Source: Carcharhinus longimanus (Eukaryota). Taken from it: a DNA stretch of 64,000 nt. Shown here piece after piece: positions 18,001 to 24,000 of the stretch (within the stretch, counting starts at the first letter, position 1; each line of letters opens with the position of its first letter). The DNA is taken from the NCBI GenBank assembly GCA_030264375.1, contig JASCQW010000061.1, positions 71,882,224 through 71,946,223 on the forward strand, read 5' to 3'. A program made the position numbers.

Positions 18001-21000
18001 TGAAGAAGGGTTGCTTCCAAGGAATAGCTGCAGTTAGAGGAAGAGTAGCTACCAGGTTTAGTAATGCCTCCCTGGAGGTCCTCAGTGGACACAGTGAAAA
18101 CTGCTGTTTCTAGTTGATGGGAGGAAAAGGCCAGCAAACCTCACCAGACCTGGCAGGCTGCAGCAGAAGTCAGCAGGCATGGGGGTGGATACATGGACAT
18201 GGTTGTAATGCCACAAGCAATTTAATTAACTGATATGGTTGATGAACGTACATCGTAATATCAAACTTACATCCTTGGAAGTCACGAAAAACACCACAAA
18301 ACTTGCTCATGAGTTAGTGGAAACAAGAGTACTTTAACATTACTCTTGTTTTTCTCACAGATCCAGTGGCAGATTGNNNNNNNNNNNNNNNNNNNNNNNN
18401 NNNNNNNNNNNNNNNNNNNNNNNNNNNNNNNNNNNNNNNNNNNNNNNNNNNNNNNNNNNNNNNNNNNNNNNNNNNNNNNNNNNNNNNNNNNNNNNNNNNN
18501 NNNNNNNNNNNNNNNNNNNNNNNNNNNNNNNNNNNNNNNGCGGGGAGTGGGGGGGGGAGGTGAGTTGATATTTCTGGGCAGAGTGAGGCTGGCAAATGGC
18601 TGTGGGACCCCAGGATAACTAGTTGGGAGAGGATTGCGCTCGATCAAGGCTGGCTGCATGTGCAGCCACAGAGGTTTACACATGCACAATAGTGCCCTCT
18701 GCTGCTTTAGCAGCCTTCCTGGTGACTTAAGCCCCATTCCCTTTTCCCTTCAGGTGAGGAACGGTTCAGCCCATTTTCTAATGCACTAAGGGCATAAAAT
18801 TCTGGATTTAAATTCGTCCAAAAAATGGACGAGAAACTCTGCTGTTTTCCTGCCCGTCCTGGACTTTGAATTTTTTTGGTAAGTTCGTCCCCACAGTGCC
18901 ACACCCTTCTTGTGTACCCTCCAGCACAGATGCTTGTAAGCTGGCAGCCATAACCATGACACCAGCTGGGGAGCGTAGCACAGCAGCATGTGAACAGCTA
19001 AAGGAAGCAGTGACAGGCATGGCCACTCTCATTGGAAGACTGAGGAAGGGCTCAAGAATGCTCAGCTCCACAAAAGTCTCTGGAGTTAATCGGCAAAATG
19101 GCAACACTGGAGCAACAGTAGTGCAAAATGTGTGGATGGAGGAGTCCATCCGCACCATGAGTGGAGGCATATCTCCTCCATTGAGATAGTGAAGATCCTC
19201 ATGGAGAACCTTACGTAGGATATTATCCAGTTGGTGCAGCAAGTACCCGCTGAACTGCATGTCACCATCTCATTGGTGAGCTCTCTGAGTGACGGGTGGG
19301 TGAAAAGGTTCTGAGATGCCTAGATCCCTCACCAGGTGCTCAAGTGCTCCAGGAATACAGGGAAGTACAAGTGGTCCATAAGAGGGTGAAGTAACGGCAC
19401 CCTGAAGCCCCTAAGGGTTCCTCTGATGGCGCTCCAGGCACCGGACGTGGTTCCCTGGACCTTGTGAATGTGACATCAATGCTTCATGAAGCCTTGATGA
19501 CTGGAGTCCCTCCTCCACAGATGCAGATGCCCCCACCTTGTGCTTGGGCCCCAGTCACCCAGAGGATGAATACAGCAGTCATCAAATGCACCAGAACGGC
19601 AATGCAAGAAAACTGATTTCACTTCATCTGATTGCACCAGGACAACATAATATTGAAACGCCCACAAGCATTGATGTAAAACCACCACATTGCACTTGGG
19701 TTTCATGGGTGATAGCACAAAATGAGAGATTTGTTTCAATATGTAAATGAAAGGTACTGTCTTATTTAAGGTAATATCTTCAGTCTTCCTTTCTGCACTA
19801 CTGAGTTGTCACCAGCTGGTGAGCTCTTAAGAAGGTCTGCATTGCATGAGGGCTAGTGTATGCATTAGCACCCTGTCAAGATGGGCCAACTGAGGTAATA
19901 AGGGTATTCAAAGAAAGGCTGTTGTAATATGGTTTTAAGCATTTGCAGCATGCCACCACTAGAAGGGAAAGTTTATATGGTACTGTCTCAGTTTCACTTT
20001 GGCCTGTGAGCAGAACACAGCACACACAACTCTGTTGCTATGTCTTCAAACTTTCTGGATGGGATTCTCTCAAAAAAATTCTAAATGTTGAATGCTTTTA
20101 TTCGGAATCTCCCTTTTAAAATTCAGGCAATATCCAGATGGAAAAAGCACATGAATTAATATAGCAACAATCTCCAAGATTTTTCAATAATTATATCTCC
20201 ATGTGTACATCACTCATCCTTAATTAGTGAATTATGAAAAGTACAGCCACCCACTCAGAAATAAGATCATTGCAAACTGATATCAATTCTGTGTATATTG
20301 AATCAACTGTACAAGGCATTGCATTCCCCTAGATTTTGTGTCTCTTTCCTTTTGACTACAATTCCTTGTGGATTGCGTGAATAAAAATATCAACTTAGCT
20401 CATTACTGACTAAATATTATAGGGGGGGCAATTCTCCCAAAAATTTCTGAGTACTGAATTTGCATGAAAACTGGAGTAAATCACACTGTTTTTTTCAGCG
20501 GGAGTTTCAAAATGAATTTCCTACACTGCAGAGTGCACTGGTGTGATTCATCTAGGAAACAGTGCATGGGACCTATTCCTGCTGGAGAGGTTGGCAGCAT
20601 AGTGCTGAGCGGGCCACTGCACATGTGCCAGTCTGTCAGTGCTGAGATTGGCGCATGCACAGTGGCCCCTATCTGCTGGCCTCCTCGATTGTTGAACAGC
20701 CCTGCGGCCCAGCATCACCAGCCCTCTCACTGCTCACCCCCTCCCACCACCCTCCCACCATGGCCCCCCCGAGTCCAGCCCTGACTTCTCCCTCCCTCTT
20801 AGTCTACCTTCATCTTCTGCTCCTCCCTGCCCCTGCCAGTCCCAATCTCCTGCCTCCCACCAGCAGTTCCGCCCCCTCTCCTGCAGGCTACACTCCCACC
20901 TCGATGGCCAGCCCCGTTCGCTGGCCTTCCTCCCTTTCCCATTGATCCTGACTGCTGAGTAGCAGAGGGACCCACCCCACAGATCGCCCTGAGGCCCTGC

Positions 21001-24000
21001 CCCATCCCCTTGGCACTGCCAAGGAGCCCGATGGGCAGTGCCAAGATGCTCCCTGAGCATTGGCTTTTCTTCAATCTACTATCCTGGCTTTTGTCATGCT
21101 TATGTTTTTCTCATTATTGTCTCATTGCTCAGATTTCTCCTATTTATACTTTTGTTACCGACTTCGATTCATTTTGATTAGATTCAGCCAAGAATCTTTC
21201 TCTGTTGGGTTTCAATCACCTACAAAGCTGCAGTTATCACATTTGGCAAAGGAAGAAACAGGAATAAAGAGTTCTTATTTTGAGACCCATCCTGCAGAAA
21301 TGACTCCCATCATTGAAGGGAAAGATTACAGAGATACCAGCCAGCAACTGAGTATTGACAAGATGAGAAGTTCACTGTGGAAACAAAATCACAGCACAGC
21401 TCACCTTTCTCCGAAAGCATCAAAGCATGTGGCAATCTCATGCTAGCCAAGTCATTGTGCAGAAGATAGAAAAGTACTGTGTCAACAAGTATTGGATCAA
21501 TCTCTGTGAAGAAATACAGATTGATGGTCAGAGCAGTAACCTTCACATTATGTATGACAGTATCAAAAGAGCACTCAACCCCATCATCAGCAAACTGCTG
21601 ATTTGGCCACAGCATTGACTGTGCGAGCCATGTGCTCCCTCTGTGTTCCATCAAAGTGTAAATCCTTTTAGTTTTACCATTTGGAGTCGATGACAGTTAT
21701 ATTAATATACAAATGATTAAGCATTTTCTACAACTCATTATGAAATTTCTGGCATGTATTAAATGTATTAAATCTGATTCATGAGTCATGGGTCAGTGAA
21801 GATGCCTGATTTCAATCTTGTGGCCCACTGAGATGAAGGAAGGCCACTCATGCAGCCCACTTACTCGCCTAGATTGCTCATCACTGTTCTAGGCAGTGAA
21901 GGTTGCAGGTGATGTCAAAAAAGCCTTGATGCACAGTGTGCATGGTGAAGGAAGTGGATGTTTAAAGTGGTGGATGGACTGTCAGTCACACGACTGCTTT
22001 GTGCTGAAAGGTGTCAAGTTTCCTGAGTGTTTCCTCATCCAGGCAAGTGGAGAGTATTGCGTAGCACTTCTGGCTTGTTTCTTCATGGGTGGTAGATCAG
22101 ACAGAAGTTCTTCTGACCTATTATTGTATTCACAACATTAAAGGTGACTACCAAGATGTTGATGATAGCAACTTCAATGATGGCAGTGATAGCAAATGTA
22201 AAGGGGAGGATTTTAGGAACTCACTGCTGGGATGGTCATTACCTGGCATTTGTGATTCTTTTCTGTCCAAGCCTAATTATTGTCCTGGTTTTGGTACATA
22301 ATGCTGCCCAGATTACTTTATTATTTGATGAATTGTGAATGGAAATGAATACTGTGCAAAGAACAGCAAACAGCCTCACATCTGATGATATGGATGGCGG
22401 GTATTGCATTGAGGAAGCAACAAAAGATACTTGGGCTTGGACGCTACCTTGAGGATCTCCTGTAACAATGTTCAAGGGCTGACATCAAGCAACTGCAATC
22501 ATGTTAACTTTGTGTTACATATTCCAACCAATGTCCCCTCCCCCCCACTAATTCCCACTGACTTCAATTTTACCAGGGCTCCTTTGCATCAATCTTGGTC
22601 AAATGCAGCCTTGATGTCAAGGGTAGAATCACCTTTGCAGTTCAGCTCCTTTGTCCATATTTGGCCAGAAGCTGTAATTACATCAGAAGCTAAATGATTC
22701 TGGAGGAATCCCAATTGAGCATCAGTGAGTAGGCTGTTGGTGAACAGGTTATGTTTGGCAGCACTGTTGATGAATCTTTCCATTAATTTATTGATGCTTG
22801 GGAGGAGACTAATAGGGTGGTTATTACTAGATTGGTCCTGCTTTTAGTGGACAGGACATACGTGGGCATTTTTTTTTTCAATTGCTTGCTACTAGAAACA
22901 AACAGATTTAATAGTGTTAGAGATTGCAATGCATCTGCTGGTAAATTTTACACTGATCTTTCATCAGCTAGAAAACAGTTGTCAGCAAGTAAGTGTTATT
23001 TGACATAGGTTTAACATGATGCATATCTTTTATGTTGATGATTTAAAAAAAATAAATATTGGAAGTGCACAGTAAGTTAACTGTACTGCATTTTCCAATT
23101 TGCCTTCTAGTGTTTGGATTGGGAATTTCAAATGATGCTGAGGCCAGGGCTAAGCTATTGCTCTGGTATTGTAAAGTCAATGAGATGCAAATCACCTCAA
23201 AGAATGCACCAATACCAATGCTTGAGTGAAGTGCGTAGAGGAATCATCCAGCAACCCAGATGTGTGACATGCAAGTTATTCGATGATGCACAATATACTC
23301 AGGACACAAGTAATTCTCATTTCGAGTTTTGGTAGAAAATGGCAACTGTGGATTGACCATTTGTTACATGCATTCCTGATCTTCCTTTCAACTGACTTGA
23401 TACGAAGGAAAATCTTGGGTGAGGTATATAACGAAAATTTCTCCACACGTTAGAGTCATTATAAATACACTATGCCATCTAACTGAATACGCTGGGGAAA
23501 GTCACATGCAGAATAATGCAACAAACAAGCCACATTTCTCTTCAACCTTCACTGAATTTCTGTTAAAATATACAGGACTTTCAGATTTCATAATTCACAA
23601 TACCAATAGCATGAACACAAAGGGGTTGACTTTAACTCTTCACTCAGCATAAATGGGGCACTAACTGTGTTAATTTGAGATGGTTGATTTACTGGCCCAT
23701 TTCTGTTCTGGCACCATTTCAACTTGGTCCCTTTATGGCGAGGAGCTCACCTAACATGTGCAATTGAGGTCCAATAATGTAGGAACATAATAGGACAGAA
23801 GGAGGCCATTTGGTCTCTCTCATCCCTGCTAGTCCTCTGCAGAAGCAATTCTCCTAGTGCTCCCCCTCGCCTTTTCCACATAGTTCTGCATATTTTTCCT
23901 TTTCAGATAATGATCCCATTTCCTTCTTAACGCCCAGATTGAATCTGGGCCTCCAGCACACTTCCAGGCAATGCATTATAGATCGTTACACTCACTGAGT

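What the first reader, a model, noticed from the sequence alone, without database searches (positions are those of the whole stretch)
20057..21063. Pack-TIR-like capture: a 330-bp AT-rich segment plus Harbinger end duplicated in inverted orientation 12 kb away and capped by an extra TIR
Seen: 20092-20420 is the reverse complement of 8418-8747 (about 90% by eye, 9 mismatches in the first ~135 nt). In both places the segment abuts the same end of the ~1.2-kb Harbinger-like element at the same junction (copy A ends 8415, copy B starts ~20424). Only the second locus has an additional ~35-bp left-end fragment (ggatgggattctctcaaaaaaattctaaatgttgaat, 20057-20091) in front, giving TIR - captured DNA - TIR - body, joined at a short gaat/atgc overlap. 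Known: DNA transposons can capture nearby host DNA by template switching during repair (Pack-MULE/Pack-TIR) or duplicate flanks by alternative transposition. Inference: this is a fossil of local, microhomology-guided capture by a Harbinger element, with donor and product both in the window. The segment is TAAT-rich and carries an acceptor-like tttttattcag followed by ~52 open codons, so regulatory or exonic sequence may have been copied.
Basis: partly seen in the sequence, partly recalled or inferred. Interest (0 to 1): 0.75.

Follow-up and report, generated by a model that had tools for sequence, protein, structure and literature searches.

The report
Repair patch between old transposon ends
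A 330-base stretch lying beside one old jumping-gene copy also occurs, inverted, 12 kb away between the ends of two other old copies, most likely as a scar of DNA-break repair, which is a known and fairly ordinary kind of event.

Summary
20092-20420 is the reverse complement of 8418-8747: 297 of 325 aligned bases are identical, with two indels. Both segments abut the left end of a ~1.2-kb TIR element at the same junction (within 3 nt). A 35-nt left-end stub (20057-20091) caps only the second locus. The window holds exactly two copies of the segment.

The reading as "A is the donor, and flank plus element were copied to B" is only partly supported. The element halves are 76-82% identical, against 91% for the flank. 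They are no closer to each other than to a third copy. A four-copy quartet count gives no A+B grouping (10/9/6). The stub, B's terminus and A's terminus look like three independent family members (22-24 of 34-35 identical).

My best reading is that only the 330 bp was copied. It patched a break between a stub of one old copy and the terminus of another, with element homology as the anchor.

It fails published Pack-TIR criteria: the parent abuts a TE and the unit has no right end. "Harbinger" is unverified: no TWA duplication and no transposase. The open frame shows no coding signal. Genome-wide copy number could not be tested. Interest is low to moderate.

The parts
8418..8747 (-). 330-bp AT-rich segment beside element copy A. 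I read it as the template (parent) of the patch.
   Evidence: 91.4% identical (297/325) to 20092-20420 in reverse complement. GC is 32%. It lies in the N-free stretch 8282-11156.
20092..20420 (+). Second copy of the 330-bp segment. I read it as the patch (filler).
   Evidence: It is bounded on the left exactly by the stub and on the right by the first base of copy B.
20057..20091 (+). 35-nt stub of the left end of a family member (B0), in direct orientation with B's left end.
   Evidence: 25/28 identical to 10526-10553, 29/35 to C's left end. Only 24/34 to B's own terminus and 23/35 to A's.
20421..21070 (+). Element copy B: left terminus and about 640 bp of body. The right part and right TIR are missing.
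   Evidence: nhmmer against copy C (20422-21003, E 3e-49) and copy A. Similarity to copies A and F fades at about 21065-21072.
7075..8415 (-). Element copy A, full length with both ends. It is interrupted by three N runs (7227-7326, 7886-7895, 8182-8281).
   Evidence: The right-end TIR motif lies at 7094-7107. Only 8282-8415 is in the same N-free stretch as the flank.
10525..11748 (+). Element copy C, used as the reference. It has both TIRs and no 330-bp segment at its left end.
18546..18891 (-). Distant family relative G (left part), used as the fourth taxon. No 330-bp segment lies beside it.
   Evidence: nhmmer E 1e-7 against copy B; sequence read; quartet count.

Best explanation
The window holds an old, dense family of non-autonomous ~1.2-kb elements with short (13-15 nt) terminal inverted repeats. 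At least six copies or fragments lie in the 64 kb.

Locus B contains parts of two independent old copies: a 35-nt stub of one (B0) and the intact left terminus of another (B). I propose that a double-strand break arose at the B0/B joint, at or within a few bases of B's terminus. It may have come from an aborted excision. The broken end, made of B's own terminal sequence, paired with the related left end of copy A, 12 kb away and inverted.

Only host flank was duplicated. The elements served as homology anchors and were not copied. The product lacks a right end and is not a mobile 'Pack' element.

Shown: the anatomy, the divergence contrast, and the lack of a sister relation. Inferred: where the break lay, the direction A to B, and the earlier nesting of B in B0.
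For: 1. The junction is the same in both loci and the alignment is continuous across it.
2. Identity drops abruptly at the element boundary. The last flank bin is 52/55 identical. The element then runs at 104/126 and 106/139. From the flank's own AT- and GC-site rates, 11.6 mismatches are expected in the first 126 nt of the element and 22 are observed (P 0.003). In the next 139 nt, 14.9 are expected and 33 observed (P 9e-6). With CpG sites masked: 6.6% in the flank against 13.6% and 19.4%. Transversions are 5/325 against 15/265, p 0.010.
3. On the same sites A-B (207/271) is about equal to A-C (201/272) and B-C (199/275). Quartets are 10/9/6.
4. In the first 35 nt the three termini are mutually 65-71% identical (22/34, 24/34, 23/35), and each is closer to copy C (25-29 of 34-35). 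So neither B's terminus nor the stub looks like a copy of A's, or of the other, made when the flank was copied.
5. A/B homology ends exactly at the stub. It does not resume beyond the stub.
6. The family is dense. Copies lie at 7075-8415, 10525-11748, 18546-18891, 20421-21070, 51731-52007 and 54666-55561, so one copy nested in another is not far-fetched.
7. Published animal cases show repair fillers copied from nearby: 56.9% from under 15 kb, with median microhomology 2 bp (PMC8277862, section 8 read).
Against: - The contrast within the securely linked part is modest. Dropping the first 12 nt gives 18/117 mismatches, p 0.05, and 0.15 after CpG masking.
- The strongest contrast comes from 7990-8130. 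That stretch joins the flank's contig only across an N run whose edges repeat 51 identical bases, so it could belong to another family copy.
- The model needs B to have lain directly against position 35 of B0 before the event. B0's remainder is nowhere in the window, and B's right half is missing, so the nesting cannot be checked.
- The anchor would have been imperfect (homeologous) pairing, which is inefficient. This point rests on my own knowledge, not on a call.
- With two flank copies and no outgroup, the direction and the single-copy status are unproven.
Confidence: 0.35

Rival explanations
1. One reading: gap filling or Pack-TIR-like capture. A break at position 35 of an element at locus B was filled with a copy of A's flank together with A's element end. 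The element part later diverged faster, or was overwritten by ectopic gene conversion from other family copies. Such conversion would naturally stop at the element boundary.
For: The stub-filler-end layout, and homology ending exactly at the stub. The distance of 11.3 kb and the 2-nt overlap fit the published gap-filling pattern (PMC8277862, section 8). If the event took place while the family was active, a star-like A/B/C tree is expected anyway. The flank's GC-site mismatch rate (0.15) is well above its AT-site rate (0.056), so some rate heterogeneity does exist.
Against: The element is 2-3 times more diverged than the flank, even after CpG masking and composition adjustment. Transversions and indels are also in excess. 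B's first 35 nt match A's at only 22/34, where about 31/34 would be expected. No stretch of raised identity lies next to the junction. The model needs a second, unobserved event or an unexplained rate difference.
Confidence: 0.25
2. The 330 bp is not single-copy host DNA. It is part of a dispersed repeat: a long-form or composite subfamily (outer end, 330 bp, inner end, body), or another repeat into which the element inserted before both were amplified.
For: A shared 'flank' at a TE end often means the repeat unit is longer than assumed (general experience, not a call). The window is repeat-dense: 9,662 of 61,420 bases fall in within-window repeats, and several families have 3-8 copies. Copy number in the genome could not be measured.
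Against: Only two copies lie in the window, and the two other left ends (C and G) lack the segment. A's homology would have to be truncated exactly at the stub boundary by chance. Co-amplification also predicts equal divergence of flank and element, which is not seen. The segment has no TIRs of its own, and the TIR-like motif at its start is not significant.
Confidence: 0.2
3. Two independent insertions at the same hot target site, into two copies of an older local duplication. This would be PIF-like target specificity, or excision followed by re-insertion of another family member.
For: It would explain why the elements are no closer to each other than any other pair in the family. The flanks of all termini are A-rich and end in ...AAAT/AT-like bases. 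Strong target preference of PIF elements is recalled from the literature, not taken from a call.
Against: The other half of the target should lie beyond each element. No homology exists between A's far side and B's far side, apart from repeat X, whose copies are independent. The stub abuts the segment at an internal position (35), not at a terminus, so an extra deletion would be needed.
Confidence: 0.07
4. An ancient co-duplication, with the 330 bp kept similar by selection or by arm-to-arm gene conversion. For example, the two segments could act as arms of a long inverted repeat in a transcript.
For: The flank shows lower divergence than its neighbours. The arms are inverted and 11.3 kb apart.
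Against: There is no Rfam match, no coding signal, and indels of 4 and 5 nt. A conversion tract would have to end at the element boundary by chance. There are no comparative data.
Confidence: 0.05

Closest known systems
Pack-TIRs formed by transposition-independent gap filling (Tan et al. 2021, Nat Commun, PMC8277862; abstract, sections 8 and 14, and the 'end bypass' passages read)
   Same: Non-TE DNA of a few hundred bp sits between fragments of a TIR element. It was copied from a nearby site (under 15 kb), with a 2-nt overlap at one joint, in an old and probably inactive element.
   Different: Both flanking fragments here are left ends in direct orientation, and they look like two different family members. 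No right end is present. The parent abuts a TE, and the published pipeline excludes such cases. The element next to the filler does not look copied from the parent.
End bypass (transduction) of flanking DNA by TIR elements, as summarised in PMC8277862 (introduction passage)
   Same: The duplicated DNA is the immediate flank of an element end, and the TE is linked to the parental copy.
   Different: Transduction moves the element together with its flank, so the element parts should be as alike as the flanks. They are not. The parental locus A has no substitute end 330 bp out.
Filler DNA in Ds-like elements and abortive gap repair (Du et al. 2011, PMC3260210, abstract and passages read; the abortive-gap-repair literature is recalled)
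   Same: Foreign DNA lies between transposon terminal sequences and is attributed to error-prone repair.
   Different: In Ds-l4 elements the filler lies between the two termini of one element flanked by a target duplication. Here there is one stub plus a second, complete left end, and no right terminus.
Coupled homologous and non-homologous repair of a double-strand break with one-sided ectopic homology
   Same: One end invades a homologous ectopic template and copies past the end of homology. The new DNA is then end-joined to the other broken end.
   Different: That mechanism was shown with engineered breaks. Here it is inferred from a fossil, with dispersed transposon copies as the homology.

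Membership tests
Pack-TIR (criteria of Tan et al. 2021, section 14) | An internal non-TE sequence of 100-5000 bp, flanked by two fragments of the same TIR element that each cover at least 10 bp of the consensus terminals | tested here: not met
   The 329-bp insert is flanked by a 35-nt left-end stub and by a second left end. The unit is truncated near 21070 and has no right terminal. The stub and the inner end are only 24/34 identical.
Pack-TIR (criteria of Tan et al. 2021) | Parental copy at least 90% identical, with a length ratio of 80-120% | tested here: met
   91.4% over ungapped positions (297/325) and 88.9% with gap columns counted, so borderline. Lengths are 329 and 330 nt.
Pack-TIR (criteria of Tan et al. 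2021) | A unique best parental hit in the genome | not testable with these tools
   Only the 64-kb window is available. It holds exactly two copies.
Pack-TIR (criteria of Tan et al. 2021) | The parental copy has no TE within its flanking 100 bp (a control for segmental duplication) | tested here: not met
   The parental segment 8418-8747 directly abuts element copy A at 8415.
PIF/Harbinger (features listed in Han et al. 2015, PMC4482050, passages) | 3-bp TWA target site duplication | tested here: inconclusive
   Copy C is flanked by AT on both sides, with no TAA or TTA. Copy A has ATA/TAT-like bases on both sides, depending on where the end is set. Other copies lack one end. The copies are old, and only two have both ends.
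PIF/Harbinger | An autonomous partner with a DDE transposase and a Myb/SANT-like ORF | tested here: not met
   Pfam gave no hit for any of 34 open frames scanned. These were 33 of the 223 frames of at least 75 aa listed, plus the 56-aa frame. The elements themselves are non-coding. A partner elsewhere in the genome cannot be excluded.
TIR DNA transposon (non-autonomous), superfamily open | Terminal inverted repeats shared among copies | tested here: met
   The motif GGNNNRATTCTCYC occurs 3 times against 0.17 expected, and 0 of 100 shuffles reach 3. The ends of A, B, C and D align.
Segmental (inverted) duplication | Uniform divergence along the duplicated block, with homology running on past the repeat | tested here: not met
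   The flank has K2P 0.093 against 0.20 and 0.30 in the element. The collinear repeat X on the outer sides is 58% identical between the arms, but 72% to a third copy elsewhere. Site counts are B-unique 74, A-unique 27, D-unique 34. The inner sides share nothing.

The most novel reading that the evidence does not exclude
Dispersed copies of an old transposon family act as homology anchors. A break made at one copy's terminus, perhaps a one-ended transposase cut, is repaired from a related copy nearby, and only that copy's host flank is duplicated. This 'flank-only' route would spread host DNA next to transposon ends without moving any element. It differs from both gap-filling Pack-TIRs and end-bypass transduction, and published Pack-TIR screens would miss it because they discard parents that abut a TE.
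Probability: 0.15. Interest if true: 0.5.

Novelty: new member of a known kind. Interest (0 to 1): 0.25.

Why it matters
If the 330 bp is truly two-copy, this is one more animal example of transposon-associated local duplication by break repair. That class is already catalogued in 100 animal genomes (PMC8277862).

The one point of wider interest is the mismatch in age between the flank and the elements. Either the elements only served as homology anchors, or element sequence here decays two to three times faster than its neighbour. Both are testable with the whole genome.

The case also shows that screens which exclude parents next to a TE cannot see this kind of event. Nothing suggests that a gene or regulatory element was copied.

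Tried and rejected
- Rfam: no match in the whole window at gathering scores, and none in 19900-20500 at E<=1.
- Pfam on 34 open frames: 0 families. A protein search with the 56-aa frame 8449-8619 found no candidate among proteins of 30-98 aa. Longer and shorter proteins were not searched.
- Coding test on the 330 bp: mismatch phases are 12/8/8 and the indels are 4 and 5 nt, so this was rejected.
- A TIR-like motif at the start of the 330 bp: not significant in shuffles.
- A terminus-like 15-mer at 8752-8766 just beyond A's segment: p 0.045 uncorrected among 32 comparisons. I treat it as chance.
- A large inverted segmental duplication: repeat X lies on the outer side of both arms and is collinear with them. 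Its copies are independent, so this was rejected.
- Resumption of homology beyond the stub, or on the inner sides: none.
- Extra hits of a 10-mer from the TIR at 23845 and 49405: these lie inside a different repeat.
- Target duplications: no consistent TWA.
- Microhomology: 2 nt, P 0.17.
- A remainder of the stub's element (B0): not found anywhere in the window.
- Literature on shark Harbinger elements: search listing only, and nothing specific to this family.
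Full report
**The window.** It is 64,000 bases with 15 N runs, 43% G+C and a CpG observed/expected ratio of 0.24. 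It is repeat-dense: 9,662 of 61,420 called bases fall in within-window blastn matches. No Rfam family reaches its gathering score. None of the 34 open frames I scanned has a Pfam domain. These were 33 of the 223 frames of at least 75 aa, plus the 56-aa frame. Nothing suggested human sequence.

Self-blastn gives one continuous alignment of 20092-20549(+) with 8747-8282(-), 84.6% over 473 columns. The 330-bp part alone is 88.9% identical over 334 columns. Of 325 ungapped positions, 297 are identical, with 23 transitions, 5 transversions and indels of 4 and 5 nt. The first 135 nt hold 14 mismatches, not 9. In both loci the segment ends ...AAATATTAT and the element's left end follows at once. A's terminus is 3 nt shorter. 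The 35-nt fragment 20057-20091 is a genuine left-end piece. It matches copy C's left end at 25 of 28 bases (E 5e-4 within the window) and at 29 of 35 in MAFFT. It is in direct orientation with the inner end. A/B homology stops exactly at the stub's last base and does not resume beyond it. A word-7 blastn and an nhmmer profile at E<=10 find only these two copies of the segment in the window. Both loci lie in N-free stretches.

**The element family.** Copy C (10525-11748) has both ends. Copy A (7075-8415, minus orientation) is full length but is cut by three N runs. Copy B (20421 to about 21070) has only the left ~640 bp. nhmmer finds further pieces at 51731-52007, 54666-55561 and, more distantly, 18546-18891. 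The shared terminal motif GGNNNRATTCTCYC occurs 3 times against 0.17 expected. The inverted repeat is only about 13-15 nt long; beyond it the left and right ends differ. I see no TWA target duplication. C is flanked by AT on both sides and A by ATA/TAT-like bases. TWA is the hallmark listed for PIF/Harbinger, and AT is the one listed for ISL2EU (PMC4482050, passages). No transposase lies in the window. 'Harbinger' is therefore unverified, and I call it a non-autonomous TIR element of open superfamily. The left ends of C and G have no 330-bp segment beside them.

**The new finding: flank and element differ in divergence.**
- The flank has K2P 0.093.
- The first 126 aligned nt of the element have K2P 0.20 (104/126 identical).
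- The next 139 nt have K2P 0.30 (106/139 identical).
- Fisher p is 0.011 for the first part and 2.7e-5 for both parts. For transversions alone (5/325 against 15/265) p is 0.010. Gap events number 2 in the flank and 9 in the element.
- With CpG sites masked, the values are 6.6% for the flank against 13.6% (p 0.03) and 19.4% (p 2e-4).
- Applying the flank's own AT-site and GC-site rates (0.056 and 0.15) to the element's composition predicts 11.6 and 14.9 mismatches. The observed numbers are 22 and 33 (P 0.003 and 9e-6).

The drop is abrupt. The last 55-column bin of the flank is 52/55 identical.

**Caveats on that finding.** If the first 12 nt of the element are dropped, the securely linked part gives 18/117 mismatches (p 0.05; 0.15 after CpG masking). 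The stretch 7990-8130 is joined to the flank's contig only across an N run whose edges repeat 51 identical bases. It could therefore come from another family copy.

**A and B are not sisters.** On 261 three-way sites, A-unique changes number 28, B-unique 29, C-unique 37, and 5 sites differ in all three. Pairwise identity is A-B 207/271, A-C 201/272 and B-C 199/275. With the distant copy G as a fourth sequence, informative patterns are AB|CG 10, AC|BG 9 and BC|AG 6 of 285 sites. In the first 35 nt, B's inner terminus matches A's at 22/34, the stub matches B's inner terminus at 24/34, and the stub matches A's at 23/35. Each of the three is closer to C, at 25-29 of 34-35. The stub, B's terminus and A's terminus thus look like three independent old family members. 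None looks like a copy of another made when the 330 bp was duplicated.

**Consequences for the models.**
- Any model that copies flank and element together predicts equal divergence. Each needs an added assumption, such as faster decay of element sequence, or later conversion of the element part by other family copies, which would naturally stop at the element boundary.
- A composite family also needs A to be truncated exactly at the stub boundary by chance.
- A large inverted duplication is rejected. A repeat X lies on the outer side of both arms and is collinear with them (5877-6749 and 21927-22845). But the two arm copies are 58% identical, while A's copy is 72% identical to a third copy at 51357-51739. 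B-unique changes are 74, against 27 and 34.

**The model that fits without an extra event.** It has four steps:
1. B had inserted next to position 35 of an older copy, B0.
2. A break arose at that joint, at B's terminus.
3. B's terminal strand paired with A's related end, and synthesis ran on into A's flank for about 330 nt.
4. The product was end-joined to the stub.

This model explains the shared junction, the abrupt identity change, the three unrelated termini and the exact boundary at the stub. Its weak points are the unverifiable nesting (B0's remainder is absent and B's right half is lost) and its reliance on imperfect homology.

**Comparison with what is known.** Tan et al. 2021 describe 370 animal Pack-TIRs. 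I read the abstract, sections 8 and 14, and the passages on end bypass (PMC8277862). They report that most single-copy cases arise by transposition-independent gap filling. In 56.9% the parent lies under 15 kb away, and median microhomology is 2 bp. The present case shares the short distance and the short overlap. It fails their criteria on two counts: the parent abuts a TE, which they exclude as a control for segmental duplication, and the unit has no right terminal. They state that their pipeline may miss TE-linked parents (end bypass). End bypass itself predicts co-copied element and flank, which is not what I see. Filler DNA between Ds termini is described in Du et al. 2011 (PMC3260210, abstract and passages). 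Abortive gap repair, ectopic P-element gap repair, coupled homologous/non-homologous repair and PIF target specificity are recalled from memory and were not read here.

**The 'regulatory or exonic' suggestion.** The 56-aa open frame 8449-8619 exists. Against it:
- Mismatch phases are 12/8/8.
- The two copies differ by 4- and 5-nt indels.
- There is no Pfam hit.
- No protein of 30-98 aa shares words with the frame.
- There is no Rfam match.

I see no evidence that functional sequence was copied.

**Verdict.** This is a decayed, non-mobile scar of transposon-associated break repair. It is a new member of a known kind, with one unexplained feature: the flank is younger than the elements. The whole genome would resolve that.

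Noticed in passing
8131-8181 and 8282-8332; 7206-7226 and 7327-7347; 25237-25265 and 25366-25394: The sequence on either side of several 100-N runs is duplicated: 51 of 51, 20 of 21 and 29 of 29 bases identical. These gaps look like contig ends that overlap but were never merged, inside repeats. I left the N runs untouched.
   Followed up: partly
5877-6749 (-), 21927-22845 (+), 51357-51739 (+): All three copies of a repeat family X lie next to a copy of the TIR element. Two are on the outer side of arms A and B, collinear with them. The third runs directly into the right part of copy D. The copies differ in age (58% against 72% identity), so the association is not a shared duplication. I have no explanation for it.
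   Followed up: partly
187-363, 17271-17476, 30694-31002, 33893-34058, 50348-50656, 60189-60525, 62685-62935: A short repeat of about 170-310 bp is present in at least seven copies at 70-81% identity, on both strands. It is SINE-like in size but has no Rfam match.
   Followed up: no
9145-10520, with related pieces at 1-73, 27177-27249, 48188-48260 and 23780-23900: A repeat of about 1.4 kb fills most of the space between A's 330-bp segment and copy C, and ends within a few bases of C's left terminus.
   Followed up: no
21367-21618 (+): An 83-aa open frame lies just after the truncation of copy B. By eye it recalls the region between the endonuclease and reverse transcriptase of LINE elements. 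That is recollection only; Pfam gave no hit.
   Followed up: partly
41537-41794 and 42207-42428: An inverted pair, 75.7% identical over 259 columns, flanks the 285-N run at 41795-42079.
   Followed up: no
flanks of element termini at 20048-20056, 20412-20420, 8416-8426, 10514-10524, 11749-11758, 52008-52016: The bases just outside the termini are A-rich and mostly end in AT (AAACAT, AAATCAT, AAATATTAT, CAAAAT...). This hints at an AT-rich target preference and perhaps a 2-bp AT duplication rather than TWA.
   Followed up: partly
4412-4658 and 54981-55226: A 247-bp repeat, 84.7% identical between its two copies, is nested inside element copy F.
   Followed up: no
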